A DNA stretch of 49,584 bases from NCBI GenBank assembly GCA_030647965.1, contig JAUSIT010000028.1:1-49584 (forward strand). The letters are read 5' to 3'. The position numbers were made by a program, and so were the translations under genes. Position 1 is the first letter of the stretch. Every line of letters starts with the position of its first letter. This DNA is from Nanobdellota archaeon. Lineage in GTDB: Archaea; Nanobdellota; Nanobdellia; Pacearchaeales; GW2011-AR1. The notes under the pieces are model-generated. The model was not told the DNA's origin, did not search any database, and was given only the letters and a program-made list of their open reading frames with translations. Below, piece after piece: positions 586 through 43,910 of this stretch.

Positions 586-735
586 AAAATCCCAATCACA
601 GTAAACTGTGGGGTATTTTTTAAACCTCCAAATGGGAACGTAAAAAGATAAGAACAAAAGTTTTTGGGTATAAGACCCATTTGCAGTAATCAAAACAAAA
701 TCTTAATTAATTTTCCAGCAATTTAATAACCCCCG

Positions 736-5622: not shown

Positions 5623-5687
5623 AGTTTTTGCTTACGCAAAAACTTACACATTAATTATTTAAGTTTTATAAAGTTTTAAGATATACA

Positions 5688-28348: not shown

Positions 28349-28567
28349 GCGTGCTAAGGCAAGATATATGGAATTTCTTAGCAGAAATTACGATTTATTA
28401 ATATTGAAATGAAAATGATTTTAGAGAATTAATAAAAGTCTAGGAGCCGCGAGGCGACTTTATATTCTAACGAAGTGCAAATTATGCGAGCGAGCCGTAG
28501 CGAGCGAAAAAGTTTTGCTCTTCTATCTTGCGTTACTTATGCAAGAGCAAAACTTTTTGAGCATCAG
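28349..28567 (+). repeat. Family A repeat, copy 2, with nested 52 bp hairpin (28507-28558)
   Basis: Shares GGCAAGATATATG..AATTACGATTTATTAATA with the 43.7 kb copy and its 3' half with the 22.1 kb copy. Confidence 0.9.
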
Positions 28568-28603
28568 ATATAAATTTAAAAGCTATAAGTTATATTTTAA
28601 GAT

Positions 28604-29629
28604 ATGAATTCAATACTGTTTATATCAATATTAGTGAGCTTTATTGCAGCACTATTAATCATGCCAAGATGGATTAGAAAGTGCAATAAAATCGGGCTTT
28701 TATGGGAAGATATGAATAAATACAAACACCCTAAAAATGTTGCTGCTTCTGGAGGAATCGTAGTTGTAATGGCCTTTATTTTAGGAGTTTTATCTTATGT
28801 GGCAATAAGAACTTTTATTATTAATGATTTAAATGGAATAAGTTTGCAGATTTTTGCATTGCTTAGTGTTGTTTTAATTTTAGCAATTGTTGGCTTGACA
28901 GATGATTTACTTGGCTGGAAACATGGAGGATTATCTGCACAATTTAGAATTTTTTTAGTTTTATTTGCTTCTATTCCTTTAGTTGTAATAAATGCAGGAA
29001 CAAAGCTTATTGAAATTCCTTTTTTTGGAGAAATTGAATTAGGATTATTATATCCTTTAATAATTATTCCACTAGGAATAACTGGCGCAACAACGGTCTA
29101 TAATTTTTTAGCAGGTTTTAATGGACTAGAAGTTGGACAGGGAATTATAATTATTTCATTTTTATCATTTATATCCTATGTTATGGGTTCTGCATGGCTT
29201 TCTTTAGTTGGGCTATGTATGGTTGCTTCTTTGTTAGTTTTTTATTATTATAATAAACATCCTGCAAAAGTTTTTCCAGGCGATGTTTTAACATATTCTA
29301 TTGGAGCAGTAATTGCATGCATGGCCATTTTAGGAAACTTTGAGAGAATAGCTATTTTTGTGTTTATTCCATATATTATAGAATTTATATTAAAATCAAG
29401 AGGCAATTTAAAAAAACAATCTTTTGGAATTCCAAATAAAGATGGAAGTTTAGAAATGCCATATGATAAAATTTATGGACTAACCCATCTTTCAATTTTT
29501 ATATTGCAAAAATTTAAGAAAAAAGTTTATGAAAAAGATGTAACTTATTTGATATTTTCATTCCAAATAATAATCTGCTTGCTTGCTTTAGTAATCTTTA
29601 AAGAATCTTTATTTAATGTAGTTGTTTAA
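28604..29629 (+). CDS. aglH: UDP-GlcNAc:dolichol-phosphate GlcNAc-1-P transferase (AglH/Alg7, MraY family)
   Basis: DMNK, GLTDD, NFLAGFNGLE, PAKVFPGD. Confidence 0.9.
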   Translation: MNSILFISILVSFIAALLIMPRWIRKCNKIGLLWEDMNKYKHPKNVAASGGIVVVMAFILGVLSYVAIRTFIINDLNGISLQIFALLSVVLILAIVGLTDDLLGWKHGGLSAQFRIFLVLFASIPLVVINAGTKLIEIPFFGEIELGLLYPLIIIPLGITGATTVYNFLAGFNGLEVGQGIIIISFLSFISYVMGSAWLSLVGLCMVASLLVFYYYNKHPAKVFPGDVLTYSIGAVIACMAILGNFERIAIFVFIPYIIEFILKSRGNLKKQSFGIPNKDGSLEMPYDKIYGLTHLSIFILQKFKKKVYEKDVTYLIFSFQIIICLLALVIFKESLFNVVV

Positions 29630-29633
29630 AAAA

Positions 29634-30605
29634 ATGAAACTAAAAATTAAAAAATATCTTCCATTAGCAGGTATTGCTATTTTTATATATTTATTATTCA
29701 AAATAAATATCTTAAATGTTTTTTCTGAAATAGAAAAAGCAGATTTAACTCTTCTTTTTATTGCAATACTACTTACTTTTGTTTATGAGATATTTCAAAC
29801 ACTAAAATGGTTTTTAATTGCACGAAAGCAAAAAATTAGTGTTTCTTTTTTAGAAGCATTTAAAATTAATTTTATGACTAATTTTTATGGCTTTGTAACT
29901 CCTTCAAAAATTGGAACAATAATAAGGGCAGATTATTTGAAAAAATATACAAAAAATATTGGAAAAGGTATAAGCAATTTTACAATAGATAAGTTGCTTG
30001 ATTTAACCTCGCTGTTTGTATTGGTTGTGTTTTTTATTTTAGTTTTTAGAAACAAATTTAATTTTATTCCATTAAATTATGTATTCTTCTTTGGATTTGT
30101 TCTTTTAACTTTATTTTTAGTATTTTATAATAAAGAAAGAAGCAAATTTTTACTAAGAATTGTTTATAGAAAATTTGTGCCTAAAAGAATGCAGGAAAAA
30201 GCTAAATTAACTTTTGAATCATTTTATGAAGACTTACCTACAAAGAAATTTTTATTTTTGGTCTTTTTAGTTAATTTAATTGATTGGATTATTATTTATC
30301 TTGTAAACTATTTTGTAGGATTATCTCTTGGAATAAATCTTGATTTAATGTATTTCCTAGCAATATTGCCTATTGCAACCTTAATTGCCCAAATTCCAAT
30401 TACAATTAATGGGCTTGGAACAAGAGAGGCAACAATGATATATTTATTTGGTTTATTTGGAATTGAAGCTGCAAAAGTATTTTCAATGTCAATTTTAGTA
30501 TTATTAATCTCGGGCGTCTTGCCATCTATAATAGGAAGTTTTTTAACTTTCAAAAACAAGGATTCTAGTAATGGAGAAGCTAAGCATAATAATACCGGCA
30601 TATAA
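29634..30605 (+). CDS. Lysylphosphatidylglycerol-synthase-TM / UPF0104 flippase-like membrane protein
   Basis: KW, TPSKIG..R, DKL.D, IPITINGLGTRE. Confidence 0.85.
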   Translation: MKLKIKKYLPLAGIAIFIYLLFKINILNVFSEIEKADLTLLFIAILLTFVYEIFQTLKWFLIARKQKISVSFLEAFKINFMTNFYGFVTPSKIGTIIRADYLKKYTKNIGKGISNFTIDKLLDLTSLFVLVVFFILVFRNKFNFIPLNYVFFFGFVLLTLFLVFYNKERSKFLLRIVYRKFVPKRMQEKAKLTFESFYEDLPTKKFLFLVFLVNLIDWIIIYLVNYFVGLSLGINLDLMYFLAILPIATLIAQIPITINGLGTREATMIYLFGLFGIEAAKVFSMSILVLLISGVLPSIIGSFLTFKNKDSSNGEAKHNNTGI

Positions 30606-31356
30606 TGAAGAAGCAAGAATAGGTAGGACTTTAGAACAATACTTGGCTTTTTTTAAACAAAAGAAAAAACAAAAAATTGTTGATGTTGAGATTATAGTTG
30701 TTTTAAATGCATGTAAAGATAAAACTCTAGAAGTTTGCAATAAATTTAAATGTAAAGAGCTTAAAATTCTAAATTTTGAACAGGGCGGAAAGGGTTTTGC
30801 AGTTGTTGAAGGATTTAAAGAAGCATTAAAAGGAGATAGCAATTATATCGGATTTACAGATGCAGATATGTCTACTCCTCCCGAAGCATTTTACGATTTA
30901 TATGCAAATATAAAAGATGTAGATGGGGTAATTGCAAACAGATGGGATAAAAACAGCAAGATTAGTGTTGAACAAACTCTTTTAAGAAAAATTATGAGTA
31001 GAGGATTTAATGTTATTATAAGAACTTTATTTATTATACCTCATAGAGATACTCAGTGTGGTGCAAAATTGTTTAAAAGAGAAAAATTAATGATTGTTTT
31101 ACCAAAACTAGGTTCAAGTGAATGGAGTTTTGATGTTGATTTGCTTTTTTATATGAGAAGAGAAAAAGCAAAAATAAAATCAATTCCAACAACATGGAAT
31201 GATGAAAAAGGCTCTAAAATCAATATTAAAAAAACTCCAATAAAGATGTTTTTATCTGCAGTAAGATTAAGATTAGTGCACTCCCCATTAAAATTTATAG
31301 TAAGAGTTCATAATATAATGCCTGAAAAATTTAAGATACATAATTTGCTGAAGTGA
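30571..31356 (+). CDS. GT2 dolichyl-phosphate hexosyltransferase (Alg5-like)
   Basis: IIIPAYNEE, GKG.AV, DADMST, DTQCGAKLF, FDVDLL. Confidence 0.9.
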   Translation: MEKLSIIIPAYNEEARIGRTLEQYLAFFKQKKKQKIVDVEIIVVLNACKDKTLEVCNKFKCKELKILNFEQGGKGFAVVEGFKEALKGDSNYIGFTDADMSTPPEAFYDLYANIKDVDGVIANRWDKNSKISVEQTLLRKIMSRGFNVIIRTLFIIPHRDTQCGAKLFKREKLMIVLPKLGSSEWSFDVDLLFYMRREKAKIKSIPTTWNDEKGSKINIKKTPIKMFLSAVRLRLVHSPLKFIVRVHNIMPEKFKIHNLLK

Positions 31357-31418
31357 GTTTTTACAAGAATATAGCACCATATACAAATCTTTAAAATAGA
31401 TATTTTCTATCTTATTTA

Positions 31419-32348
31419 ATGATTAAATTTTCATTAATTATACCTGTAGCGCCAGATAGAAATGCAGAAATAATTGAATCAATAAGTCATATTGACTATC
31501 CTAAATCTAAGTTTCAAGTAATAGTTGTAAAAGGTAAAAATCCTTCTGAAAATAGAAATAAAGGGGCTGCTCAAGCAAAAGGAGAGTTTCTTGCTTTTTT
31601 AGACGATGATGCTGTTATTGACAAAGATATTTTAAAAAATGCAGAGAATTTTTTTGGAAATAATAAAAATATTGATATTGTTGGAGGACCTCAGCTAACT
31701 CCTAAAGATGAAAAAGGCTTTGCACTAAAATCAGGGTATGCTTTAAGTTCAAAATTTGGTGCTTGGAAAATGGCCAATAGATATAGTGGAACAAAAGAAG
31801 TTTATGATGTTGATGAAACAATGCTTACTTCTGCAAATTTATTCTGTAAAAAAAGAGTTTTTGACAAGATAAAATTTGACCCTAATTTATTCCCTGGTGA
31901 AGATCCAAAATTTATTGAAGATGCAAAAAAAGAAGGATATAAAGTAGCTTATTCTCCAAATTTAATTGTTTATCATAGAAGAAGAGCAACTCTAAAAGGT
32001 TTAATAAAACAAATTTTTAATTATGGAAAAACACGACCTAAAAAAGAATCTTTAATTAACACAATTAAAAAACCATTTTTTGTTATTCCAAGCTTATTTG
32101 TTTTATATTTAGTGGGTTTGATGATATTATCTTTTATAAGTTATTCTTATATTTGGTTTATACCTTTAGGGTTATATTTACTAATGGATTTTTTATTTTC
32201 AATTTATGAATCAGTTAAAAATAATTCATTTTATTCAATTTTCTACCTGATTTTTATATTCCCAATAATTCATATAAGCTATGGCCTTGGAATGATTTTG
32301 GGCAGTCTAACTAAATTAAAACCAAAAAAGAATACAAATACACAATGA
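31419..32348 (+). CDS. GT2 glycosyltransferase with C-terminal TM segments
   Basis: NRN.G, FLDDD, GED, YHRRR, Q.F.YG. Confidence 0.9.
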   Translation: MIKFSLIIPVAPDRNAEIIESISHIDYPKSKFQVIVVKGKNPSENRNKGAAQAKGEFLAFLDDDAVIDKDILKNAENFFGNNKNIDIVGGPQLTPKDEKGFALKSGYALSSKFGAWKMANRYSGTKEVYDVDETMLTSANLFCKKRVFDKIKFDPNLFPGEDPKFIEDAKKEGYKVAYSPNLIVYHRRRATLKGLIKQIFNYGKTRPKKESLINTIKKPFFVIPSLFVLYLVGLMILSFISYSYIWFIPLGLYLLMDFLFSIYESVKNNSFYSIFYLIFIFPIIHISYGLGMILGSLTKLKPKKNTNTQ

Positions 32349-33823
32349 AAATAATAATAGGTTATCCACCAACAGAATCTGCAAAAGGAACTGCATTGCT
32401 ATCACAAAATAGGCAGTTTCAGTGGTTTAGCAATCCAACTTATATATTTCCAGTAATACTTGCTTCTGCTGCAACTATTTTAAAAGCAAATGGAAATGAA
32501 GTAAAATGGATTGATTGTATTGCTGAAAAAATAAATAAAGAAAATTTTTTTGAAGAAATTGAAAGAGAAAAACCAGAATTATTTATTTTTGAAACAAAAA
32601 CTCCTGTAATAAAACAACACTGGAATTTAATAAATGAAATAAAAGAAAAATTTCCTGAATTAAAAATAGCTGTTTTAGGAGATCATGTTACATCTTTTCC
32701 AGAAGAAACAATGAAAAATTCAAAAGCAGATTTTGTTTTAACAGGGGGAGATTTTGATTTTCTCTCTTTAAACCTTGTTAATTTCTTAAGCAAAAATAAC
32801 AAGAAAGGCAAAAAAGTAAAAGAAAAATTAGATACAGGAATTTATTATAGAAAAGCTGGAAAAATTTTGAATACAGGAACTTTTCAATTGAAACATAATT
32901 TAGATGAAGCTCCATTTATAGACCGGGAATTAACAAAATGGAAGTTGTATGAAATTGAATATAATTTAATTGGAAGGCCATTTTTTTACATAATGTCTGG
33001 AAGAGATTGCTGGTGGGGGAAATGCAAGTTTTGTGCATGGCCAAGATTATTTCCAAAATTCAGATGCAGAAGTGTGAAAAATGTTTTAGATGAAATTGGA
33101 ATGTTAATTGACAAGTATGATGTTAAAGAAATATTTGATGATTCTGGGACTCTAATGGTTGGAGATTGGCTAAAAGAATTATGCAATGGATTAATTGAAA
33201 GAGGATATAATAAAAAAATAATATATTCGTGCAATATGAGATTTGGAACACTAAAGCAAGAAGATTATGATTTAATGAAAAAAGCAGGATTTAGGCTTTT
33301 AAAATTTGGATTAGAGTCTGCAAATCAGTCAACATTAGACCTATTAAATAAAGGAATTAAAGTTGAAGACATTAAAAATGGATGTGAAATGGCAAAAAAG
33401 GCAGGCTTAACTGTTCATTTAACAATGATTGTAGGTTATCCTTGGGAAACAAAAGAAGATGCCTTAAACACCTTTAAACTTGCAAAAGGGCTAATGCAAT
33501 CAGGAAGAGCAGACTTGCTTCAGGCAACTGTTTTAGTCCCATATCCAGGAACTCCTATATGGAAAGATGCTAAACAAAATGACTGGTTTTTATTTAATCC
33601 AATGGAATATGAAAGATATGATATGTCAGAACCAATTTTAAAAACAAAAGATTCAAATCCAGAAGAAATTGCAAAAATCTGTGGAAAAATTTATACAATA
33701 TTTTTAACTCCTCAGTATGTATTTGCAAGATTAAAAAGCATAAGAAGTGTTGATGATTTTAAATTTAACTTAAGAGGAGTCAAGGCAGTTGCAGGGCATT
33801 TGAAAGACTTTTTAGTTAGATAA
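32345..33823 (+). CDS. B12-binding-domain radical SAM protein
   Basis: N-terminal cobalamin-binding-like domain; RDCWWGKCKFC, FGLES, VGYPWET, PYPGT. Confidence 0.88.
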   Translation: MKIIIGYPPTESAKGTALLSQNRQFQWFSNPTYIFPVILASAATILKANGNEVKWIDCIAEKINKENFFEEIEREKPELFIFETKTPVIKQHWNLINEIKEKFPELKIAVLGDHVTSFPEETMKNSKADFVLTGGDFDFLSLNLVNFLSKNNKKGKKVKEKLDTGIYYRKAGKILNTGTFQLKHNLDEAPFIDRELTKWKLYEIEYNLIGRPFFYIMSGRDCWWGKCKFCAWPRLFPKFRCRSVKNVLDEIGMLIDKYDVKEIFDDSGTLMVGDWLKELCNGLIERGYNKKIIYSCNMRFGTLKQEDYDLMKKAGFRLLKFGLESANQSTLDLLNKGIKVEDIKNGCEMAKKAGLTVHLTMIVGYPWETKEDALNTFKLAKGLMQSGRADLLQATVLVPYPGTPIWKDAKQNDWFLFNPMEYERYDMSEPILKTKDSNPEEIAKICGKIYTIFLTPQYVFARLKSIRSVDDFKFNLRGVKAVAGHLKDFLVR

Positions 33824-33832
33824 AATAATAAG

Positions 33833-34975
33833 ATGGTAAAATATACTACTTCAGTAGAGGCTGATAAAAAAATTGAACAAGATTTAGAAATAATTAAAAA
33901 GATTATTCTTGAAAAATTTAAACCAATTTCAATAGTTATGTTTGGGGGCTTTGGGCATGGTGCAGGAAGCTTTAAGAAAATAAAAAATAAGATTATACCT
34001 TTAAATGATTATGATTTATATTTAATAACTGAAAATAAAATAAGTGATGAAGAGCTTGAAAAAGCAGGAGAAGAGTGTTCAAAAGCTCTTGGAAGAGGTG
34101 GAATAGAATTCGTTGAGAATTTTGAAAAAACATATGATGAAAATAATTTCTTTCATGTTGATTTGCACTGTTTAGAGTATAAAAAATTAAAAAAATTATA
34201 TCCTACTCAAAGAAGCTTTGATTTAAAGACAAGTTTAGTAATTTATGGGGACAAAGATATTTTAAATCAAATCCCTGAAATAAAAATATCAAAATCAGAT
34301 GCAATAAGGCTTTTATTTAATAAGCTTGACCATTTTGCAATTGCAGAAAATAATTCTGAGATTATCAAATCAATTTATGCTGTAAAAGGATTTAATGATT
34401 TATGCTCTGCAATTTTGATTTCAAAAGGAATTTATGTTTCTTCATATGAAGAAAGAGCTAAAATTTTTGAAAAATTAGATGATATGTCTGGAGAATTAAA
34501 AAAATTAGTAAAAAAAGCAACAGATTCTAAATTAAATAATGGTTATGAAATAAAAGATACAGATAAATTCTTTAATGAATCAAAAAAATGGGTTGAATGG
34601 ACTTTAAAAAAAATAATCAAAGAACATTTGAGGATTGATTCTGATGATTGGAATGAAATAGCAAAAATAATGTATAAAAAATTGCCTTATAGTTATTTTA
34701 ATGATTATCTGGGAAGCAAATACTTATTTTTTGGTCAGTATTACTTAAATATTAAATTCTTTTTATCAGCAATAAGAAAAAATGAATTTTTGCCAAAATC
34801 ACTTATTAGGTGGAGAGATTCGGGATTAATAATTGCAATTTCACTTATGTTATACTCTTTTAAACAAGAAAAAGGAGCTGAAAAATATCTTAAAAAATTA
34901 ACCCGCAAAACAAATCCATTAAGGGAGAGGATTCTTAAATTATACTCAATATATTATTTACAGAAATTGGTTTAA
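33833..34975 (+). CDS. Pol-beta-like nucleotidyltransferase domain protein
   Basis: MFGGFGHG...NDYDLY...VDL. Confidence 0.7.
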   Translation: MVKYTTSVEADKKIEQDLEIIKKIILEKFKPISIVMFGGFGHGAGSFKKIKNKIIPLNDYDLYLITENKISDEELEKAGEECSKALGRGGIEFVENFEKTYDENNFFHVDLHCLEYKKLKKLYPTQRSFDLKTSLVIYGDKDILNQIPEIKISKSDAIRLLFNKLDHFAIAENNSEIIKSIYAVKGFNDLCSAILISKGIYVSSYEERAKIFEKLDDMSGELKKLVKKATDSKLNNGYEIKDTDKFFNESKKWVEWTLKKIIKEHLRIDSDDWNEIAKIMYKKLPYSYFNDYLGSKYLFFGQYYLNIKFFLSAIRKNEFLPKSLIRWRDSGLIIAISLMLYSFKQEKGAEKYLKKLTRKTNPLRERILKLYSIYYLQKLV

Positions 34976-34991
34976 ATAAAATAAAAAACAA

Positions 34992-36104
34992 ATGAAAATA
35001 CTAATAACCGGAGCAACAGGATTTATTGGAAGCCATTTAGTTGAAGAGCTGAAAAAAGATAAGAAAAATAGTATAAGATGTCTTGTTTTGAAAAATAGCC
35101 CTATTTTTAAAAAAAATAGAGAAAAAAGAGAATTAGAGCTTAAAAATTTAGGTGTTGAAATATTTTATGGGGATTTACTTGATAAAGATTCTTTAATTAA
35201 TGCACTTAAGGGTGTTGAAAAAGTATATCACTTAGCTGCAATAAGCAGGCCTATGAATGTTGAAAAGCATGTTTATTATGATATTAATGTAATAGGAACA
35301 AAAAATTTATTTGAGGCTTGCAAAATAAAAAAAGTCAAGAAAATAATACATGTTTCTACAATGTCTGTTTTTGGATTTTCAAGAAATGGAAATCCTTTAA
35401 ATGAAAACTCCCCAAAACTTCCTGTAAGTGATTATGGAGAAAGTAAAAAACAGGCAGAGGATTTTGCTTTTGATTTTTGCAAAAAAAATAAAATTCAACT
35501 AGTTGTTATAAGACCTCCAATGGTTTTTGGGCCAAGAGATTTTCAATTTTTAAGATTGTTTAAATTAATTAATACTGGATTTTTTCCTTTATTAAAAAAA
35601 GGAAGAGCAAAATTAGAATTTTGTTATGTTAAAAATTTAGTTAATGGAATAATTCTTGCAGATAAATATGGTAAAAATCTAGAAGCTTATGATATTTCTG
35701 ATGGCCAGACATATACTATAAAAGAAGTTTTTGGAAAAATTGCAGAAGTAGAAGGGAAAAAATTATTTCCTTTTTCTGTTCCTGTTTTTTCTGTAAGAAT
35801 TATAGGATGGATATTTGAAAAAACATATGGCTTATTTGGTAAAAAAGCACCTTTTAATTCAGGAACAGGATTATGGATGAGTAAGGACAATGTAATGGAT
35901 ATTTCAAAAGCTAAAAAAGAGATTAAATATTCAAATAAAATTAATCTTGAAGAAAGTATAAAAGAAACAGTTAAATGGTATCAAAAAAACAATATGCTAC
36001 CTACACCTAAAGGCGGGAATTTAAAAAGCAGTAGCACTTGTTTTTTGGATGATCCGAAATTAAAACCAGTAAATTTCGGACATAAAAGTGAGGGTTTATT
36101 ATGA
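34992..36104 (+). CDS. NAD-dependent epimerase/dehydratase (extended SDR), with C-terminal in-frame insertion
   Basis: TGATGFIG, HLAA, YGESK, RPPMVFGP. Confidence 0.92.
   Translation: MKILITGATGFIGSHLVEELKKDKKNSIRCLVLKNSPIFKKNREKRELELKNLGVEIFYGDLLDKDSLINALKGVEKVYHLAAISRPMNVEKHVYYDINVIGTKNLFEACKIKKVKKIIHVSTMSVFGFSRNGNPLNENSPKLPVSDYGESKKQAEDFAFDFCKKNKIQLVVIRPPMVFGPRDFQFLRLFKLINTGFFPLLKKGRAKLEFCYVKNLVNGIILADKYGKNLEAYDISDGQTYTIKEVFGKIAEVEGKKLFPFSVPVFSVRIIGWIFEKTYGLFGKKAPFNSGTGLWMSKDNVMDISKAKKEIKYSNKINLEESIKETVKWYQKNNMLPTPKGGNLKSSSTCFLDDPKLKPVNFGHKSEGLL
35980..36083 (+). repeat. AT-bounded two-hairpin element inserted in frame (102 nt)
   Basis: ATCAAAAAAA...GGACAT; removal restores WYKSEGLL*. 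Confidence 0.75.
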
Positions 36105-37318
36105 AAACACTAATATTGTTTATTGATGCATTCAGCTTTACAGATTTAAATGAAAAAAATGCTCCTTTTATTTTTAATCTTGCAAAAAATGGAAGTTATG
36201 GGCCCTTAACAACAATTCCTGCAGGATACCATATTGAATATAGTATGCTTTCAGGTTCTCTTCCACTAAAACATAATGTATGGACATGGTATTATCTTAA
36301 AAAAAATTCTTCATTTTCAAAAATAAAATATATTAAGCCATTAATAAAATTACTGAACAAAAATGAAAAAATGCAAAGAAAATTAATTGATGTTTATATT
36401 AATCTATTAAGACTTTTATCAGGAAAAACAAGATTTTTAAAAACAAACAAGATTCCAATAAATTTGCTTGAAAAATTTGAAATTGCAGTTGACAAATCTT
36501 ATGTTGATCATAATCCATTGAATGTTCCAACACTATTTGATATTTTTAGAAAACAAAATATAAATTATGTTGCAATGGAATATCCAACAATATCAAATAA
36601 AAATAAAACATGGTTTTATTCTGGAAAAGATGATTTCAAACAGCTGGAAAAAACAGAAAAATTGCTTGAAAAATACGATGTTGTTTATAACCATATATGG
36701 AATTTAGATTCAATTGAACATAAATATGGCTTACATAGTGCTGAAGCATTAGAACATATTAAAAAAATTGATTCTTATGTTGAAAAAATAGTATTGAGTC
36801 AAAGAGAACCAATTAAAATAGTAATTTTTTCAGACCATGGCGGATGCAATGTTAATCAAACAAAAAATATACTAGATATTTTAAAAGGATTTAATGTAGA
36901 TTATTTTATTGGTTCAACAACATGCCAGATTTGGTTTAAAGAAGATAACTTAAAAGAAAAAGAGAGACTTAAAAATATTTTAAAAGATCATGATTATTTG
37001 ATTTATGATAAGAAAAATATTGAAAAAGAGCTAAAAATACCATATAAAAGAGAGTTTGTAGGGGATATTTTAGCCTGGGTAAAGCCAGGGGAGCAAATAT
37101 ACCCTGATTTTTTCAGAGATACAGATAAGGTTAAGTCAATGCATGGATATACTCAAAAAGTTCCTGAAATGGCAGGTATTTTTATTATGAATGGGTTTGA
37201 CAAAAAAGATAAAAAAAATAAAATAAAAGAAATGATGCTATATGATATCGCGCCTACAATTTTAAAAGGATTTAATATGGAGATTCCTAAAGAGTGGGAT
37301 GGAAAAGCGAGAGTTTAA
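36101..37318 (+). CDS. Alkaline phosphatase superfamily (nucleotide pyrophosphatase/phosphodiesterase-like) protein
   Basis: FIDA, D..EH.YG, FSDHG, MHGY, DIAPTIL. Confidence 0.85.
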   Translation: MKTLILFIDAFSFTDLNEKNAPFIFNLAKNGSYGPLTTIPAGYHIEYSMLSGSLPLKHNVWTWYYLKKNSSFSKIKYIKPLIKLLNKNEKMQRKLIDVYINLLRLLSGKTRFLKTNKIPINLLEKFEIAVDKSYVDHNPLNVPTLFDIFRKQNINYVAMEYPTISNKNKTWFYSGKDDFKQLEKTEKLLEKYDVVYNHIWNLDSIEHKYGLHSAEALEHIKKIDSYVEKIVLSQREPIKIVIFSDHGGCNVNQTKNILDILKGFNVDYFIGSTTCQIWFKEDNLKEKERLKNILKDHDYLIYDKKNIEKELKIPYKREFVGDILAWVKPGEQIYPDFFRDTDKVKSMHGYTQKVPEMAGIFIMNGFDKKDKKNKIKEMMLYDIAPTILKGFNMEIPKEWDGKARV

Positions 37319-37346
37319 GTTAGTATTTAATTGAATTTATTTTCAT

Positions 37347-38936
37347 TCAACCGCTTACACTTCTATTAAATTCATAAATTACTAAGACAGGAGATTGCTG
37401 GCCTTGTATTGTTTGACTATATGCTTGAACAGGGACTAGTAAATCTTGGTGATTTTGAGGGTATTCTAAAACCCATTGAGGATGACTTTCAAAAACAGAG
37501 AGTATGAAAAATCTTGGATTTAATTTTTCTAATCTATTAATTTCAAAATCAGATTCATTTACACCAAAATCATATGAAGACCTTTCTGAATAGTATTGAA
37601 TTTGAGGCATTGAAGCAGTTATTACAATATCTTGAGGATTTGAATTTTGTTTTAACCATAATCCTGCTTCTTTTACTTCTGCATAAGAAGTTAACTTATT
37701 GTCAATTAAGCCATTTCCAAAAGTATAGTTTGAATAAAATAAAAATATAACTAATACAAAAATAATAAATCCTGCAACTTTTTTGCTTTTAATAAATTTC
37801 TCAGACATATTTTCAAGGGTCATGATGGGGGAAAGTGCAATTAAAAATAAAAATGGAAGACAGGGAATAACATATCTTTGTTCAACATAATCTGTAATTC
37901 TTCCTAAAATTAAAAATGAAGCAACAATCCATACTAAAATAAATAATTTCTTTTGAAGCTCTTGATTTTGAAATATTTTATCAAAACCTAAGACTAAATC
38001 TGAAAAAAAGATGAAAATACCTAGAATAAATAAAATAAATATAATTGGGAACTTATCTGCAGAAAGAATATATGGAAGATTTTTGAAATAATCTAACATT
38101 GTTGAAAAAGATCTTTGATCAGCAGCAGTTTGTTCAATGCCTTGTTTTCCAAATCCAAAATAGTGAGCCATAATGTCTGTAACAGGATTTCCGAAATGCC
38201 CCCAGTATAAAAATAAAAGAGGAAGTAAAACAAGTGCGAAAATAGCTATAGAAATCCATAATTGCTTATTTTTAACAAATTTGAATTTTTCTTTTGTAAA
38301 AGCATAAACTAAAAAAGCAGGAGCAAACATTAAACTCTGCATTCTTGTTAAAGCAGCAAGGGCTAAAAATAATCCAAACAAGTAAATATACTTATTTCCC
38401 TGATTTTTAACATATCCTTTCCAAAAAAACAAAGTTGCTGTTAAAAGAAAAAAAGCAGCAGGAATTTCTGTTAAAGTTCTTCCTGTAAAAAATAAAATTG
38501 TCCAGGATAAAACCATGCCTATACTTACATATAAAGAAATTTTTTTATTAAACATTTCACTAATTAATAAATAGGTAACTAAAACCAATCCTGTTGAAAA
38601 TAAAACTGCTACAAATCTTATTCCTGTTTCTCCAAATCCTAATTTAAATAAAAATGCGCAAATTAAAGGAAATAAAAAACCCCTCCTATAGTACCATATA
38701 TCTAAAAGATTAAGACCAAGACCCCATTGTTTTGCAGTTGCTAAATAACTTGCCCCATCATACCATAGTGGCTGATTCATTGTTTTAAGAAAAATTAAAA
38801 ATCTAATGACAAAAGCTGCGATTAAAATTAAGATAAAAACTCTGGTATAAGGATCTTTAAACCATGAAGAAATTTTATCTTTAAATTTGTTTTTTCTCTG
38901 CTCAATTATTTCGTTAGATTCACTTGAATTTTCCAT
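37347..38936 (-). CDS. GT-C fold glycosyltransferase (PMT/ArnT-like)
   Basis: LWYDGASY, multi-TM, QRYVIP.LPF, soluble C-domain. Confidence 0.85.
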   Translation of the reverse strand: MENSSESNEIIEQRKNKFKDKISSWFKDPYTRVFILILIAAFVIRFLIFLKTMNQPLWYDGASYLATAKQWGLGLNLLDIWYYRRGFLFPLICAFLFKLGFGETGIRFVAVLFSTGLVLVTYLLISEMFNKKISLYVSIGMVLSWTILFFTGRTLTEIPAAFFLLTATLFFWKGYVKNQGNKYIYLFGLFLALAALTRMQSLMFAPAFLVYAFTKEKFKFVKNKQLWISIAIFALVLLPLLFLYWGHFGNPVTDIMAHYFGFGKQGIEQTAADQRSFSTMLDYFKNLPYILSADKFPIIFILFILGIFIFFSDLVLGFDKIFQNQELQKKLFILVWIVASFLILGRITDYVEQRYVIPCLPFLFLIALSPIMTLENMSEKFIKSKKVAGFIIFVLVIFLFYSNYTFGNGLIDNKLTSYAEVKEAGLWLKQNSNPQDIVITASMPQIQYYSERSSYDFGVNESDFEINRLEKLNPRFFILSVFESHPQWVLEYPQNHQDLLVPVQAYSQTIQGQQSPVLVIYEFNRSVSG

Positions 38937-39022
38937 TAATATTCTTGTATAATTGGGTTTTTATTTATTACTTATATGAGAAAAATTCATTTAAAAGAAT
39001 TTATGTAGGGGATTTTAGGTGA

Positions 39023-39910
39023 TTATTTTGTGCTTTCTACCCTATCCCATGCATCCACTTTATAGTCTTTTTTTACATATAATTTAAAGAAACTAACTAG
39101 CCAGATGTATAATCTAAAAGGAAATAAGCTTAGTGTCCAATAAAACTCTTTAAAACTTTTATGATATGAAAATATTTTATAGCTTTCAAGAATTTCATTT
39201 TTCAGTGTTTTCATTCTTGGAACATTTTTTAAATCTGCATATTGAGAAAGAGTTTCATGAGCTTTAGCTGTTCTCTTTTTTTGATCTAAAAAATCTTTTA
39301 AATTAGAGGGATATTTAACATAAACTTCTGCTTGAGGAACATATTTTATTTTATAGCCTTTTTGATAAAATAATATCGGGACAATTGTATCTTCTGCTGT
39401 TTCCTGAGGAATAGACTTAATAACATTATTTCTAAATGCCCATAAATAACCTGAACATTCTAAAAATTTTCCTTTTTTATTTCTGTCAAATCTTAATCTA
39501 TGAGCTGCATAGCATAATAAATGAGCCCAGTACCCATATTTATTATCTTTAGAATTTGATGGAACTGGCTGGCCTGTAACACATCCAACTTCTTTATTTT
39601 CAAATTCTTTTAAGATTTCATTTATTGAATTTTCAGATGCATAAACATCCCCATCAGTCAAAACAATTATATTTCCTTTTAACTTTGGCAATAGCAAATT
39701 TAAAGCAAAAGTTTTGCCTTTTCCAGGGTCTTGAAAAACCTTTATTTTTTTGTTCTTTTTTGCATAGCTTTTTGCAACATCTATTGTTTCTTTATCTGGA
39801 GCAGAAACTATTAATTCGTATTTTTCTTTAATATTCTGGCGTGTTATTGCAGATATTGCCTTGCCTATTGTTTCTGGCTCCTTATAGGAGGTTATGATTA
39901 TTGAGATCAT
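39023..39910 (-). CDS. GT2 glycosyltransferase
   Basis: GK..ALN, TDGD, AED, QKKR. Confidence 0.9.
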   Translation of the reverse strand: MISIIITSYKEPETIGKAISAITRQNIKEKYELIVSAPDKETIDVAKSYAKKNKKIKVFQDPGKGKTFALNLLLPKLKGNIIVLTDGDVYASENSINEILKEFENKEVGCVTGQPVPSNSKDNKYGYWAHLLCYAAHRLRFDRNKKGKFLECSGYLWAFRNNVIKSIPQETAEDTIVPILFYQKGYKIKYVPQAEVYVKYPSNLKDFLDQKKRTAKAHETLSQYADLKNVPRMKTLKNEILESYKIFSYHKSFKEFYWTLSLFPFRLYIWLVSFFKLYVKKDYKVDAWDRVESTK

Positions 39911-39960
39911 AATCAACAAACTACCGATAGATTTAAATATGTTTTTAGAAAGTTTATTTT

Positions 39961-40350
39961 ATGAAATACCCATTAGATGAGCTAATTGACAAGAAGTCAA
40001 TAATTCAGCTTAAAACAGAAAGAATTGAAGATAGTACTGACAGGGAAAGATTAAAGGGGGAGTTAAAAGATTATTCTCAAGCTATTGAAGAGTATATTCT
40101 AGGGGAGGTTTGCAATCCTGAACAAGTTCAAAATTGGTATAAAAGACTTTATGAAGCAAATGGAAAAACATGGGATTTAGAAGTAAATATAAGAAAAGGC
40201 CAGCTCGGGACAATGAGCTTAGAAGAAGTTGGAAGAACTGCAATTAAAATAAGAGAATCAAATGGAGTAAGAGTTAAAATAAAAAGTGAGATTGTAGAAG
40301 CAACAGGAATTGGATATAAAGATATTAAGATTAATCATGCTTCTCAATAG
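39961..40350 (+). CDS. Helical hypothetical protein (DUF6165/DUF4254-like)
   Basis: ELIDK.SI..LK.ERI, N...WDLE..IR, N..R...K..I pattern. Confidence 0.6.
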   Translation: MKYPLDELIDKKSIIQLKTERIEDSTDRERLKGELKDYSQAIEEYILGEVCNPEQVQNWYKRLYEANGKTWDLEVNIRKGQLGTMSLEEVGRTAIKIRESNGVRVKIKSEIVEATGIGYKDIKINHASQ

Positions 40351-41718
40351 TTATAGATCAAAACCATAAAGTTCTTTATCTGCTGTTTTTCTAAAATTTT
40401 TATACATTCTTGAATAAGTTTCATTTACTTCTTTGTTTGGAATTTCTAAAAGTTCAATTAATCTTTCTTGAGTATAGACTTCAGGATATTTAACTGCTAA
40501 TGCAAATAATTTCTGAAGATTTACTCTTTCATTTTTATTTGGAATTTCAATAACAGACTGATCAAAAAAATTATTTCCTATATCTGAAAAATCTCCTTTG
40601 TAAACTCCTTCCTTAACACATCTTTCACCTAATTCTGTTTTTGGATAGGGCTGAAATAAACTAACCCAAGAATAATTTGGCTGGCACTGCCTATTTAATT
40701 CTAAAGTTTCTAAATCATCTTCTAAACTAGTGAACGGCAAGCCGATTATATTTTGAAGCATTACTTTAATCCCTTTTTCTTTTAATTTTTTAACAGAATC
40801 TATTATTTGTTCATTAGTCATATTTCTATTTAATATATTTCTTCTTACATAGTCAGAGCCTGCTTCAGAAGCTATATGAACACTATAACATCCTGCATCT
40901 GAAAGAGAATTAATAATTTCATCATTTACTAAATTTGCTCTTAAGTGTGAATGAAATGGCAAATTTATTTTTTGTTTATATTTTTCTGAAAATTCTTTAA
41001 CCCATTCTTTATTTAAAATAAAAGTATCATCTTGAAAATAAATAAATTTTGTAGGAGATTCTTCAACTACTTGTTTAACTTCGTCTAAAAGATTATCAAC
41101 AGATCTAAATCTTACTCTTTTTCCTTTATCTTGATATATTTCTGAATAAGATGCATTAAAACAATAAGAACAATTAAATGGGCATCCCCTTGAAGCAATA
41201 AAATGTTTTATAGGCCCATCACCAATATTAGGATATTTAAAAACAAGTTCTCTATCTGGAAATGAAATTTCATCAAGATTAGCAATTAAATTTCTAGGAG
41301 GATTAGAATAAATTTTATTATCTTTTTTGACCCATAAATTTTGAATATTAGTAATATCCTGTTTTTTTTCAAGTTTATTACATAACTCTGAAAAAGAAAG
41401 TTCTCCTTCTCCAATATTTATTGCATCAAAACTTGAATCTTTAAACCATTCTGGAAAAAATGTAGGGTGAGGCCCCCCTGCAATTGAAAATTTATCATAT
41501 TTTTTTAGTTGGCGATTAGTATTATCAAAAAATTGATGGTCTCCTGTAATCAAGCTATAAGCCAGTATATCTGGAGAAAACTCTTCTACCTTATTTTCTA
41601 AATTTTCTGTTGTTAGTACTAAATCTGTTGAATGGCCCTGTTTTTTTAGTGAAGATGAAAGGTACATCACCCCTAAAGGTTCGATATTAAAAGGCTTTGA
41701 AATAAATAATACCTTCAT
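40351..41718 (-). CDS. B12-binding-domain radical SAM protein
   Basis: EPLG.MYL, GGPHPT, GEGE, SRGCPFNCSYC, DDTF. Confidence 0.92.
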   Translation of the reverse strand: MKVLFISKPFNIEPLGVMYLSSSLKKQGHSTDLVLTTENLENKVEEFSPDILAYSLITGDHQFFDNTNRQLKKYDKFSIAGGPHPTFFPEWFKDSSFDAINIGEGELSFSELCNKLEKKQDITNIQNLWVKKDNKIYSNPPRNLIANLDEISFPDRELVFKYPNIGDGPIKHFIASRGCPFNCSYCFNASYSEIYQDKGKRVRFRSVDNLLDEVKQVVEESPTKFIYFQDDTFILNKEWVKEFSEKYKQKINLPFHSHLRANLVNDEIINSLSDAGCYSVHIASEAGSDYVRRNILNRNMTNEQIIDSVKKLKEKGIKVMLQNIIGLPFTSLEDDLETLELNRQCQPNYSWVSLFQPYPKTELGERCVKEGVYKGDFSDIGNNFFDQSVIEIPNKNERVNLQKLFALAVKYPEVYTQERLIELLEIPNKEVNETYSRMYKNFRKTADKELYGFDL

Positions 41719-41793
41719 GCTAAATGCACAATAATAATGTTTATAAATTTAATAATCTATTTTCGTAATTGTATAAAGGTAACAAAATAACCA

Positions 41794-43671
41794 ATGAAAG
41801 CACTAATACTCGCTGGCGGAAGAGGAAGCCGGTTAAACGAATTAACAAAAGACAAAAACAAAAGCATGTTAGAACTATTTGAAAAACCCCTTATTGAGTA
41901 TAATTTAGGGCATGCTTTTGAAGCAGGTGTTGGCGAGATTATAATTGTTGTGGGTTATAAAAAAGAAGATATTATCAAATATGTAGGAAATAGCTATAAG
42001 GGGATAAAAGTCAGCTATGTTGTTCAAAAAGAGCAAAGAGGGGTTGTTAATGCTATTGAAAGTGCAAGAAAAGCAATTGGAAAAAGTGATTTTATTCTTA
42101 TGCTGGCTGATGAAATAGTTGTTGATGCAAAATTAAAAGAAATGGCTGAAAAATTTAAAAAACAAGAGCTTTTTGGAATTTGTGGAGTAACTTTTGAAAC
42201 AGATAAATCCAGCATTGGAAAGACTTATTCTTCAATGGTTAATGAAAAAGGAAGAGTTTTCAGGTTAATAGAAAAACCAAGATTCCCAATAAATAACATT
42301 AAAGGAACAGGGCATTGTATTTTGAAAAATGAAATTTTAGATTATATTGAAAGAACCCCTATAAATGCAAACAGGGGAGAAAGAGAGTTAGTTGATTTAA
42401 TTCAGTGTGCTGTTGATGAAGGAAAAAAAGTTTATGTTTATCCTATAACAAAAGCTTATGTTAATGCAAATACACAAGAAGATTTTGATTTAGCAAAAGA
42501 AATGATTAAAAAATCAAATCCAAGAGTTTTAATTGTTCATACTCAAATGAAATATTTAGGTGGAGCTGAATTGCTTATTGTAGAATTATGCAACTGGCTG
42601 ACAAAAAAAGGAGTAAAAAATGACATATTAGCTTTATCAAAATCAAAAGAAGTTGAAAATTCTCTAATTAATACAAATATAATTATCCCAAAGCACAATA
42701 TTGATTTGTCTCCCCCTGGATTTAAAAATTCTAAAGATATTTTAGATTTTATAAAAGTATATAGAGGAGAATTAAGAAAATTAGCAAAAGAATATGATGT
42801 TATTAATTTTCATAATTTTCCTGCAACTTGGACATTATTTCCAAGAAAAAAACCTTGTGTCTGGATGTTAAATGAACCTCCAAATTTATGGAGCAAGCCA
42901 AATGCAAGCTTTTCATTGAAAATGCTAAATAAAATAAGAAATTATGTAGATAGAGAAATTATTAGAAATTCAGTAGATATTATTTGTGTTGCAGACGATT
43001 TTAACAAAGAAAGAGCAAAAATAAGATATAAGAAAAATCCAAGACTTTTTTATTATGGTGTTAATTATGATTTTTTCTCTAAAGGAAATGCTGAAAAAGC
43101 AAGAAAAAAATTTAATTTAAAAAATAAATTTATAGTTATTCAATCTGGAATGCTTACTGAACAAAAAAATCAACTAGAAAGCATAAAAACAATTAACCAT
43201 GTAAAAAAAGAAATTCCAAATATCTTGCTAGTTTTAGCTGGAAAAGCAGATGAAGATTATAAGAAAAAATTAAATAATTATATTTTAAAAAATAATTTAG
43301 AAAAATATGTTTTATTTACAGATAATTTAAACAGAGAAGACTTAAGAGATTTATATGAGGCAAGTGATGTAGGTTTATTTCCTATTGGAAAGCAAGGAGG
43401 ATGGCTTGCACCATTTGAAATGCTTTGTTCTGAAAATCCAATAATTGTTTCAGAAGATTTAGGTGCTGCTTCTATAATTAAGAAAAATGAATTAGGTAGT
43501 GTAACAAATAATTATACAGATGCACTAATTAAAATTTATAAAAATAAACAAGAATATAAAGATCAGGCAAAAAAAGCTGCATTATGGATTAGTAAAAATC
43601 TTGGATGGAATGTTTTTGCAGACAAAATGATTAAGGCATATAAAGATGCATGGAAGATGCATCGGGGATAA
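41794..43671 (+). CDS. Sugar-phosphate nucleotidyltransferase fused to GT4 glycosyltransferase
   Basis: LAGGRGSRL..LT...K, EKP, RGE.ELVD; then GGAE, KNQ, PFE GT-B domain. Confidence 0.9.
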   Translation: MKALILAGGRGSRLNELTKDKNKSMLELFEKPLIEYNLGHAFEAGVGEIIIVVGYKKEDIIKYVGNSYKGIKVSYVVQKEQRGVVNAIESARKAIGKSDFILMLADEIVVDAKLKEMAEKFKKQELFGICGVTFETDKSSIGKTYSSMVNEKGRVFRLIEKPRFPINNIKGTGHCILKNEILDYIERTPINANRGERELVDLIQCAVDEGKKVYVYPITKAYVNANTQEDFDLAKEMIKKSNPRVLIVHTQMKYLGGAELLIVELCNWLTKKGVKNDILALSKSKEVENSLINTNIIIPKHNIDLSPPGFKNSKDILDFIKVYRGELRKLAKEYDVINFHNFPATWTLFPRKKPCVWMLNEPPNLWSKPNASFSLKMLNKIRNYVDREIIRNSVDIICVADDFNKERAKIRYKKNPRLFYYGVNYDFFSKGNAEKARKKFNLKNKFIVIQSGMLTEQKNQLESIKTINHVKKEIPNILLVLAGKADEDYKKKLNNYILKNNLEKYVLFTDNLNREDLRDLYEASDVGLFPIGKQGGWLAPFEMLCSENPIIVSEDLGAASIIKKNELGSVTNNYTDALIKIYKNKQEYKDQAKKAALWISKNLGWNVFADKMIKAYKDAWKMHRG

Positions 43672-43687
43672 AAATTTTCTAATAATT

Positions 43688-43910
43688 TGATGCTCGCTTC
43701 GCTCGCATATGATGTGCCTGATGGCAAGATATATGAAATTTTCTAGCAAAAATTACGATTTATTAATAATTCTGATACAGAATTTCTGGGTAGGATTTTT
43801 ACTAATAAATCGTTAGGAGACGCCAAAAAGTTTTACTCTTACAATAAGTAACGATAATAGAAGAGTAAAACTTTTTCAGTCGACTTAGTATTATCACAAA
43901 GTGCTAAATT
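43688..43910 (+). repeat. Family A repeat, copy 3, with nested 52 bp hairpin (43825-43876)
   Basis: Homologous to the 28.3 kb and 22.1 kb copies. Confidence 0.9.

What the first reader, a model, noticed from the sequence alone, without database searches (positions are those of the whole stretch)
28507..43876. 52 bp perfect hairpin nested inside family A at two different sites and orientations
28507-28558 has arms AAAAAGTTTTGCTCTT/AAGAGCAAAACTTTTT. 43825-43876 has AAAAAGTTTTACTCTT/AAGAGTAAAACTTTTT, a compensatory G-C to A-T change. The 20 nt loops are homologous (CGTTACTTAT) but inverted. One copy interrupts the terminal GAGC motif, the other the TAGGAG..CGACTT motif, and copy 1 of family A has none. 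This indicates independent insertions that prefer another repeat as target. A minimal look-alike is aagtttttgc-ttac-gcaaaaactt at 5622-5645.
Basis: seen in the sequence. Interest (0 to 1): 0.7.

Follow-up and report, generated by a model that had tools for sequence, protein, structure and literature searches.

The report
Mobile hairpin nested in other hairpins
The two 52-base hairpins belong to a family of about a hundred small mobile DNA hairpins in a tiny archaeal genome that preferentially land in the loops or at the feet of other repeated hairpins, much as some bacterial palindromic repeats do.

Summary
Both 52-nt perfect hairpins are at the stated coordinates, and their 20-nt centres are reverse complements.

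They are 2 of 96 full copies, plus 14 fragments, of one element ('E'). E has 16-bp arms and an asymmetric centre of about 21 nt. The host is a 0.98-Mb, 28% GC, 85%-complete archaeal MAG.

- 53 of 96 E copies interrupt the core modules of family A (M1, M2). Only 78 of 2000 random intergenic points do.
- 27 copies sit in one GNNA tetraloop of M2.
- All 50 empty M2 copies have an 11-nt stem-loop segment. With E removed, 22 of 29 filled copies have 12 nt.
- E copies there are 86% alike while their hosts are 66% alike, with no correlation (r = 0.02).
- Near-identical E copies occupy at least four kinds of site.

One point fails: the 'compensatory' G-C to A-T change lies at an arm position that varies independently on the two sides.

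E-like hairpins occur in 11 of 150 related genera and in metagenome contigs, with compensatory arm changes between genera. No transposase was found in this assembly.

Best reading: a non-autonomous REP/MITE-like foldback element with structure-directed insertion. This is a new archaeal variant of a kind known in bacteria.

The parts
28507..28558 (+). E copy, centre in the reference orientation (CTATCTTGCG...). It is inserted in the terminal GCGAGC-type motif ('M3') of family A copy 2.
   Evidence: It is 98% identical to the E copy at C34:37849, which sits in an M2 loop.
43825..43876 (-). E copy, centre inverted. It is inserted in the GNNA tetraloop of module M2 of family A copy 3 (GCC|E|CA, one extra C).
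28363..28400 (+). Module M1 of family A copy 2: a hairpin of about 7 bp with a TAGC loop; no E inserted.
   Evidence: nhmmer hit, fold, stem covariation.
28442..28480 (+). Module M2 of family A copy 2: a 3-bp covarying stem, a GCGA loop and flanking G.A/A.G positions; the loop is empty.
43728..43765 (+). Module M1 of family A copy 3; no E inserted.
43815..43906 (+). Module M2 of family A copy 3, split by the E copy at 43825-43876.
22154..22192 (-). Module M2 of family A copy 1; empty GCTA loop.
22239..22276 (-). Module M1 of family A copy 1; empty TGGC loop.
631..665 (-). Truncated E: part of the centre plus one arm.
   Evidence: nhmmer partial hit; sequence.
5622..5645 (+). 10-bp hairpin with a TTAC loop just after a stop codon; not a member of the E family.
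   Evidence: the E profile did not report it at E <= 1.

Best explanation
E is a small, non-coding, non-autonomous mobile DNA element of the foldback (REP/MITE-like) kind. It has 16-bp arms that must stay complementary and an asymmetric centre of about 21 nt carrying a conserved CTATCTT next to one arm.

It has spread to about 100 copies in this Woesearchaeota-like genome. It inserts preferentially into structured DNA, meaning the apical loops or the feet of other short hairpin repeats. The targets are family A modules M0, M1, M2 and M3, family B, and IS200-like end remnants.

Insertion into the M2 tetraloop (G-C^T-A) usually adds E plus one extra C. Other sites show one extra G or C, no extra base, or the loss of one base. 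There is no fixed duplication of 2 bp or more. Orientation relative to the target hairpin is biased.

Shown here: multiplicity, exact empty and filled sites, target enrichment, independence from host-module divergence, local clustering of near-identical copies, and conservation of arm pairing across genera.

Inferred: the element moves through a single-stranded hairpin intermediate and is recognised by structure. An enzyme supplied in trans would do the work. A Y1 (HUH, IS200/RAYT-like) transposase is the leading candidate, at roughly 35-40%, but it is not present in the assembled 85% of this genome.
For: Copy number and location
- 92 copies by regex; 96 full copies plus 14 fragments by profile. 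87 of the 96 lie wholly between two ORFs of at least 60 aa, 5 lie at contig edges with an ORF on one side only, and 4 overlap short ORFs.

Target preference
- 51 of 96 insertion points lie in M1/M2 at model positions M2-9 (23 copies), M2-8/10/12 (7), M2-31 (6), M1-21/23 (12) and M1-0 (3).
- 53 of 96 are spanned by M1/M2 hits, against 78 of 2000 random intergenic points.

Empty versus filled sites
- 50 of 50 empty M2 copies have an 11-nt stem-loop segment. Of 29 filled copies, 22 have 12 nt, 5 have 10 and 2 have 11.
- Families B and D also have empty and filled copies.

Independence from the host repeat
- E copies in M2 loops are 86% alike; their hosts are 66% alike; r = 0.02.
- E copies 96-100% identical lie in the M2 loop, the M2 tail, the M0/M1 junction and non-A sites. 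One identical pair sits 431 bp apart at different site types.
- For 15 of 96 copies the most similar E is on the same contig; the permuted mean is 4.9.

Orientation
- Relative to family A, 40 of 51 copies share one orientation; 23 of 27 do so in the M2 loop.

Other organisms
- The same sites recur in metagenome contigs.
- An E-like hairpin sits at the GGTTTAATA(C)^ site beside Y1 genes in two other genera.
- Arm pairing across genera: 95.6% of cells paired, 7 of 16 pairs changed on both sides, 0 of 500 shuffles reach the observed covariation score.
- Y1 genes occur in 7 of 11 E-bearing relatives and in 40 of 139 others (Fisher p = 0.036). TnpB occurs in 2 of 11 and 9 of 139.
Against: - No transposase was found in this genome: no Y1, IS110 DEDD, DDE_Tnp_1 or rve hit, and no multi-copy protein family resembling a transposase.
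- No longer element with the same arms carries an ORF; the longest is 180-235 bp.
- In relatives, the Y1 genes are flanked by a different hairpin (CCCCGCAGC-TTG-CTGCGGGG type), not by E on both sides.
- The Y1 co-occurrence is weak, and kin are not independent.
- There is no population-level empty/filled polymorphism at one orthologous site. The one orthologous intergenic region compared carries family A in opposite orientations.
- Some E subfamilies are confined to one context. The family-B subfamily is one example (5 of 5 filled B1 copies). The AAAAGATTT-arm subfamily in M1 is another. This fits co-amplification for those copies.
- Junctions are not uniform (+1, 0 or -1 nt).
Confidence: 0.72

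Rival explanations
1. Mosaic co-amplification, as in bacterial BIMEs. E is one module among several (M0, M1, M2, M3, B) that are shuffled and copied together as composites. The 'nesting' would then reflect spread and recombination of composites rather than targeted insertion of E.
For: - All five filled family-B1 copies carry the same E subfamily (TTCTTTTTGTGTTTCTATTAA centre), which was seen nowhere else.
- The AAAAGATTT-arm subfamily is seen only at the M1 TAGCGAC|..|GAATT site.
- C10:17016 and C10:29368 are identical E copies in similar M2 hosts.
- Module content of family A copies varies. M3 occurs at either end, and other inserts lie in the central ATTAAT palindrome of window copies 2 and 3.
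Against: - E distance and host distance are uncorrelated (r = 0.02), and E copies are far more alike than their hosts (86% against 66%).
- One E subfamily, differing by at most 2 nt, occupies four or more site types.
- Empty sites are exact (50 of 50).
- Filled M2 copies carry many different covarying stem variants.
Confidence: 0.15
2. A functional structured element kept by selection. Candidates are a bidirectional transcription stop (hairpin plus T5 on both strands), an RNA-stabilising hairpin, or a protein-binding DNA site. Multiplicity would then reflect function rather than mobility.
For: - Arms are conserved, with compensatory changes, across 11 other genera and metagenome contigs.
- A CTATCTT motif is conserved in the centre.
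- Each strand ends in T5 after the stem.
- About ten copies lie 40-160 nt downstream of tRNA genes.
Against: - Distribution over tandem, divergent and convergent spacers (52, 20, 15) roughly follows spacer length (56.8, 32.4, 15.7 kb). 20 copies lie between divergent gene starts.
- Orientation relative to neighbouring genes is random (50 of 87).
- Arm positions 10 and 11 vary independently on the two sides. G.T and A.C cells are equally common (33 against 42), which gives no strand-specific signal.
- No Rfam family matches.
- Most related genera searched lack E (139 of 150).
Confidence: 0.1
3. Chance, or crowding. Hairpins fall within family A only because intergenic space is scarce in a compact genome.
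For: The genome is compact: about 88% lies in ORFs of at least 60 aa, and about 107 kb is non-ORF sequence once E is removed.
Against: M1/M2 hits cover only 3.9% of random intergenic points but 55% of E insertion points. 23 insertions share one phosphodiester position.
Confidence: 0.01

Closest known systems
Bacterial REP elements nested in other palindromes (Di Nocera et al. 2013, PMC3733652; passages read)
   Same: Both are short extragenic palindromic repeats in high copy number, regarded as miniature mobile DNA. That paper reports REP families regularly inserted within other small or long palindromes, for example inside CCGSSCC(n3,4)GGSSCGG. This is the same 'palindrome inside palindrome' pattern seen here.
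   Different: - E is in an archaeon.
- E is AT-rich, with a 16-bp perfect stem and a long conserved centre of about 21 nt, whereas REPs are 20-40 bp imperfect palindromes.
- No GTAG or CGTC tag appears at its ends in the sequences printed.
- No flanking RAYT gene was found in this genome.
- E mostly occurs singly and in direct, not inverted, pairs.
MITEs (miniature inverted-repeat transposable elements), including the census that lists a Woesearchaea genome at 105 MITEs/Mb (PMC11602168; passage read)
   Same: E has terminal inverted repeats, is small, non-coding, intergenic and multi-copy, and has subfamilies. Longer (180-235 bp) and internally deleted relatives share the same ends.
   Different: E has no fixed target-site duplication of 2 bp or more (+1, 0 or -1 nt). 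No parent insertion sequence with the same ends was found. At 52-54 bp it is at the lower size limit. Its targets are defined by structure.
Insertion sequences that target REP hairpins (Tobes & Pareja 2006, PMC1525189, abstract read; IS110-family ISPpu9/ISPpu10, search listings)
   Same: Repeated extragenic palindromes serve as specific, orientation-biased insertion targets.
   Different: Those are autonomous elements that encode their transposase, and for IS110 a guide RNA. E encodes nothing, and no IS110-type gene was found here.
IS200/IS605 elements and their ORF-less derivatives
   Same: Shared traits are recalled properties of that family: hairpin-based recognition, insertion without a duplication, and strand-specific orientation. 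Y1 genes are common in related genera (47 of 150). IS200-like end remnants ('family D') are present in this genome.
   Different: The hairpins flanking the Y1 genes in relatives are a different sequence family. E is a single symmetrical hairpin, not two distinct subterminal ends.
Very small dispersed repeats of cyanobacteria that insert into one another (Elhai et al. 2008; recalled, not held in the library, and its title was met only as a search term)
   Same: Both are tiny mobile repeats found nested within other repeats.
   Different: The host domain, the sequences and the size differ. Details were not checked because the paper could not be read.

Membership tests
MITE | Terminal inverted repeats | tested here: met
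   16-bp arms. 1264 of 1344 arm cells are Watson-Crick in 84 copies.
MITE | Target-site duplication of fixed length (2 bp or more) flanking each copy | tested here: not met
   In the M2 loop, E removal leaves +1 nt in 22 of 29 copies, -1 nt in 5 and 0 in 2. Family D shows 0. The M2 tail shows +1 G in the 6 copies read.
MITE | A parent autonomous element with the same ends | tested here: not met
   No arm pair flanks an ORF; the longest element with E arms is 180-235 bp. No transposase family was found in the 85%-complete assembly. Absence from an incomplete MAG is not proof.
MITE | Small, non-coding, multi-copy, intergenic | tested here: met
   96 copies of 52-63 bp. 87 lie wholly between two ORFs of at least 60 aa, 5 lie at contig edges and 4 overlap short ORFs.
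REP / REPIN-RAYT system | Short extragenic palindrome in high copy number | tested here: met
   However, the stem is longer and more AT-rich, and the centre longer, than the 20-40 bp given for REPs in PMC3733652 (listing).
REP / REPIN-RAYT system | A single-copy RAYT (Y1) gene flanked by the same repeats | tested here: not met
   No PF01797 match in the genome itself. In two relatives an E-like hairpin lies on one side only of a Y1 gene, whose own flanking hairpins are of another type.
REP / REPIN-RAYT system | Conserved GTAG (or CGTC) tag at one end | tested here: not met
   E ends are A5 and T5, and the flanks vary with the target. The tag definition comes from PMC3733652.
REP / REPIN-RAYT system | Inverted doublets (REPINs) or alternating arrays (BIMEs) | tested here: not met
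   The five pairs of E copies within one family A copy are all in the same orientation: C14:4321/4408, C44:6784/6872, C10:29368/29478, C18:14434/14542 and C8:10706/10795.
IS200/IS605-derived ORF-less element | Ends homologous to the left and right subterminal hairpins of a Y1 element | tested here: not met
   The hairpins flanking the Y1 genes are CCCCGCAGC-TTG-CTGCGGGG-like and unrelated to E.
Known RNA family (Rfam) | Match at or above a family's gathering score | tested here: not met
   Only sub-threshold generic hairpin matches.

The most novel reading that the evidence does not exclude
E and its host modules may record a structure-directed insertion pathway in DPANN archaea. In this reading, single-stranded hairpins are spliced into the loops or feet of other hairpins with at most one base gained or lost. 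The result is a set of recursive hairpin-in-hairpin mosaics: E in A, E in B, a B-like module inside long E, and long E in A.

The enzyme would be either an archaeal Y1/HUH transposase acting in trans or an unrecognised enzyme. As far as I recall, the first option would be the first REP/RAYT-like system described outside bacteria.
Probability: 0.3. Interest if true: 0.75.

Novelty: new variant of a known kind. Interest (0 to 1): 0.52.

Why it matters
Small-genome DPANN archaea are usually described as streamlined. Yet about 5% of this genome's non-ORF DNA is one 53-bp hairpin element (5,159 nt beside 106,675 nt of other non-ORF sequence), and more consists of the hairpin modules that it invades.

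The exact empty and filled sites, the one-base junction signature and the orientation bias give a concrete, testable footprint of how tiny palindromic repeats move. That question is still open even for bacterial REPs.

The element also explains several assembly breaks, since contigs end inside its long variant. It could serve as a lineage marker for this group in groundwater and sediment metagenomes.

Tried and rejected
- Terminator or promoter role. Spacer-type distribution and orientation relative to genes are as expected by chance for E, M1 and M2.
- Strand-specific (for example RNA-level) selection on the E stem. G.T and A.C cells are symmetric, so there is no such signal.
- Bulge-helix-bulge intron idea. 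The E/M2 junction is a 2x3 internal loop next to a 16-bp helix, not two 3-nt bulges 4 bp apart (my reading). I dropped the idea.
- Replication-linked orientation. Adjacent copies share orientation in 41 of 66 pairs (p = 0.064). The GC-skew difference has p = 0.076. Neither is significant.
- Orthologous empty site. One relative contig (L013) shares both flanking genes with C13 but carries family A in the opposite orientation, so it is not informative.
- Public runs. No RNA holder is listed. Contigs of four runs, laid on 21500-41000, break inside E and show no listed joint that skips exactly E. This gives no evidence either way.
- Viral contigs. No exact match to the pattern.
- The weak 'TnpB zinc-ribbon' hit is ribosomal protein L37ae.
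- The three-copy protein families are a nucleotidyltransferase or have no Pfam match.
- Literature. One search was badly chosen and returned nothing relevant. Three further searches found no description of these hairpins in Woesearchaeota or DPANN. Supplementary tables of PMC11602168 were not opened and might list this genome's elements.


Full report
**The sequence**

Each has 16-nt arms and a 20-nt centre. The two centres are reverse complements, so the whole element is inverted between the two sites. As single-stranded DNA they fold at -14.8 and -11.6 kcal/mol, about six standard deviations better than shuffles.

**The organism**

The window is contig C16 of a 981,990-bp assembly of 45 contigs with 28.2% G+C. 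It carries archaeal SSU and LSU rRNA and is estimated 85% complete. The only other species genome with an exact match to the pattern is titled Candidatus Woesearchaeota.

**Census**

- A regex for the arms (up to 3 mismatches each) with a 10-40 nt centre finds 92 hairpins.
- A profile built from them finds 96 full copies and 14 fragments.
- All centres align in one orientation to a common consensus of about 21 nt. The element ('E') therefore has a polarity despite its symmetric arms.
- 87 of the 96 copies lie wholly between two ORFs of at least 60 aa. Five lie at contig edges with an ORF on one side only, and four overlap short ORFs by 23-52 nt.
- Copies fall in tandem, divergent and convergent spacers (52, 20, 15) roughly in proportion to spacer length (56.8, 32.4, 15.7 kb).
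- Orientation relative to neighbouring genes is random (50 of 87).

**What family A is**

After removing E in silico, iterative profile searches resolve family A into short modules.
- M1 (61 hits) is a hairpin of about 7 bp with a TAGC or TGGC loop.
- M2 (84 hits) is a 3-bp stem with a GNNA tetraloop. It is flanked by nearly invariant G.A and A.G positions and followed by a conserved tail.
- A small hairpin M0 lies upstream. An ATTAAT-centred palindrome lies between M1 and M2. A GCGAGC-type motif (M3) occurs at either end.
- The M1 and M2 stems covary. For M2 position 6-13 the pairs are CG 52, AT 14, TA 3 and GC 2 of 79. For M1 position 14-23 they are TA 26 and GC 18 of 49.

So E's targets are themselves conserved hairpins.

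**Nesting is real and targeted**

- 51 of 96 insertion points lie in M1/M2 hits and pile up at a few model positions. These are M2-9 (23 copies, with 7 more at M2-8/10/12), M2-31 (6), M1-21/23 (12) and M1-0 (3).
- In a stricter test on joined flanks, 53 of 96 insertion points are spanned by an M1/M2 hit, 4 are within 5 nt and 8 are within 60 nt. Among 2000 random intergenic points, 78 are spanned, 24 are adjacent and 120 are near.
- By eye, further 'unassigned' copies sit in degraded M1, M2 or M0 contexts.

**Empty and filled sites**

- In all 50 empty M2 copies the stem-loop segment is 11 nt long.
- After E removal, 22 of 29 filled copies have 12 nt. The extra base is a C next to the junction in 21 of them. 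Five have 10 nt and two have 11.
- At the M2 tail, the six filled copies read AACG|E|GAAGTGC against the empty AACGAAGTGC.
- Family B, a larger hairpin, has empty copies (TTTACAAACCACACC and CAAACCCACAC) and filled copies (TTTACAA|E|CCACACC and CAAAC|E|CCCACAC).
- An IS200-like end remnant ('family D') is empty as GGTTTAATACTCC and filled as GGTTTAATAC|E|TCC.

Junctions thus gain one base, lose one base or stay unchanged. There is no fixed duplication of 2 bp or more.

**Independent insertion rather than co-amplification**

- The 27 E copies in M2 loops are 86% identical pairwise (centres 73%). Their host modules are 66% identical, and the two distance sets are uncorrelated (r = 0.02).
- One E subfamily, differing by at most 2 of 53 nt, occupies the M2 loop, the M2 tail, the M0/M1 junction and a non-A site.
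- Two identical copies lie 431 bp apart at different site types. The window's first copy (M3 site) is 98% identical to a copy in an M2 loop on another contig.
- For 15 of 96 copies the most similar E is on the same contig. Label permutation gives a mean of 4.9 and a maximum of 15 in 1000 trials. This suggests local movement or local duplication.

Against this, a few subfamilies are confined to one context (family B1; the AAAAGATTT-arm subfamily in M1). Some composites probably also spread as units.

**Orientation**

Relative to family A, 40 of 51 E copies share one orientation; in the M2 loop, 23 of 27 do. Three metagenome copies in M2 loops have the same relative orientation (my reading). In family B the same subfamily occurs in both orientations at the same site.

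**The 'compensatory' change**

At arm position 11 the 84 best copies show GC 34, AC 22, GT 21 and AT 7. This is close to the product of the marginal frequencies (36.7, 19.3, 18.3, 9.7; computed). Position 10 behaves the same way. These two positions form a CpG in the least-decayed copies, and CpG is strongly depleted genome-wide (observed/expected 0.34). The simplest reading is independent transitions after insertion.

Positions 5 and 6 do covary between subfamilies (GC 57, AT 19 and CG 4 of 84 at position 6). G.T and A.C cells are equally frequent (33 against 42), so there is no sign that one strand is selected as RNA.

**Longer relatives**

A 180-bp element at C28:18513-18692 has the same arms. 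Its interior contains a family-B-like stem. Truncated copies lie at two contig ends and one contig start. The complete copy and the two contig-end copies follow CTAG in an M2 loop; the contig-start copy is followed by the M2 right half. The E copies with a 31-nt centre are internal-deletion derivatives of this long form. Nesting is therefore reciprocal: E sits in B, and a B-like module sits in E.

**Elsewhere**

- The exact pattern is absent from 40 nearest relatives.
- It is present in one other species genome and in 21 metagenome stretches with 28-39% G+C. It is absent from viral contigs.
- In the metagenome stretches, insertions recur in the M2 loop, near the M2 tail, in M3 and in M0.
- A covariance model finds E-like hairpins in 11 of 150 other genera of the family, several with many copies. 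At most 38 candidates per genome were scored.
- Between genera the arms differ by compensatory changes: 95.6% of cells are paired, 7 of 16 pairs are changed on both sides, and 0 of 500 shuffles reach the observed covariation score.
- The centre keeps CTATCTT next to one arm, and flanks are often C- or G-runs.

**Who moves it**

- In this genome I found no Y1, IS110 DEDD, IS4/5-type DDE or rve match.
- There is no multi-copy transposase-like protein.
- There are only two tyrosine recombinases, one of them below the Pfam cut-off.
- Y1 genes are common in the family (47 of 150). They occur in 7 of 11 E-bearing relatives and in 40 of 139 others (p = 0.036; kin are not independent). TnpB shows no such link (2 of 11 against 9 of 139).
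- In two relatives an E-like hairpin sits at the GGTTTAATA(C)^ site just outside the left hairpin of an IS200-like Y1 element. The same site is hit in this genome's ORF-less 'family D' copies.
- The Y1 genes' own flanking hairpins are a different family.

E is therefore a guest at that site rather than the cognate end. A Y1 enzyme acting in trans remains the best specific candidate only on general grounds: hairpin recognition, no duplication, strand bias. These are properties of that enzyme family as I recall them.

**Comparison with known systems**

- Bacterial REPs are reported to lie inside other palindromes, including small CCGSSCC(n3,4)GGSSCGG palindromes (PMC3733652; passages read).
- REPs are known targets of insertion sequences (PMC1525189; abstract read).
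- A MITE census notes a Woesearchaea genome at 105 MITEs/Mb (PMC11602168; passage read).
- Searches for MITE with DPANN, for Woesearchae with MITE, and for nested/MITEs/hairpin/archaea/intergenic repeats found no description of these hairpins.

E fails the strict tests for MITE (no fixed duplication, no parent element) and for REP/RAYT (no tag, no flanking RAYT, no inverted doublets). I file it as a new archaeal variant of the small palindromic mobile repeat, not as a member of either family.

**Verdict**

The compensatory-change detail is rejected. The mechanism is partly shown (insertion footprint, targeting, independence) and partly inferred (single-stranded hairpin intermediate, enzyme supplied in trans).

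Noticed in passing
window 2441-2510 (-): Rfam match to DUF3800-X RNA (58.4 bits against a gathering score of 38.2).
   Followed up: no
window 751-879 and 4517-4645: A 129-nt direct repeat, 92% identical, with copies 3.8 kb apart.
   Followed up: no
G000 C18:16676-16737 (L001): A weak E-like hairpin with a 30-nt centre starts at the base after the 3' end of the 16S rRNA match, upstream of the spacer tRNA.
   Followed up: no
whole genome G000: The tRNA covariance model finds 32 tRNA genes, many spanning 90-150 nt and so probably carrying large introns. ARAGORN finds only 21, including three 'tRNA-Stop(tta)' and one 'tRNA-Pyl(cta)' calls with introns, which are probably mis-assigned anticodons. 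About ten E copies lie 40-160 nt downstream of tRNA genes, next to palindromes that resemble the T-arm.
   Followed up: partly
M2 module, e.g. window 28442-28480: The covarying 3-bp stem and GNNA loop are flanked by nearly invariant G.A (76 of 76) and A.G (71 of 78) positions. At the innermost pair, T.G occurs 10 times and C.A twice. This hints that the hairpin forms on one particular strand.
   Followed up: partly
G000 C22:7358, C19:42574, C29:4504, C31:29805: ORF-less copies of sequences that flank IS200-like Y1 genes in related genera (GGTTTAATAC + CCGCAGCTTGCTGCG hairpins) are present, although no Y1 gene is in the assembly.
   Followed up: partly
whole genome G000: CpG is strongly depleted (observed/expected 0.34) while GpC is enriched (1.39). 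The hypervariable E arm positions form a CpG.
   Followed up: no
G000 C19 end, C37 end, C33 start: Three contigs end or begin inside the long (about 235-bp) E variant, so this repeat caused assembly breaks.
   Followed up: partly
window 28404-28440 and 43766-43810: Family A copies 2 and 3 carry unrelated extra inserts in the centre of the ATTAAT palindrome between M1 and M2. Compact copies elsewhere lack them.
   Followed up: no
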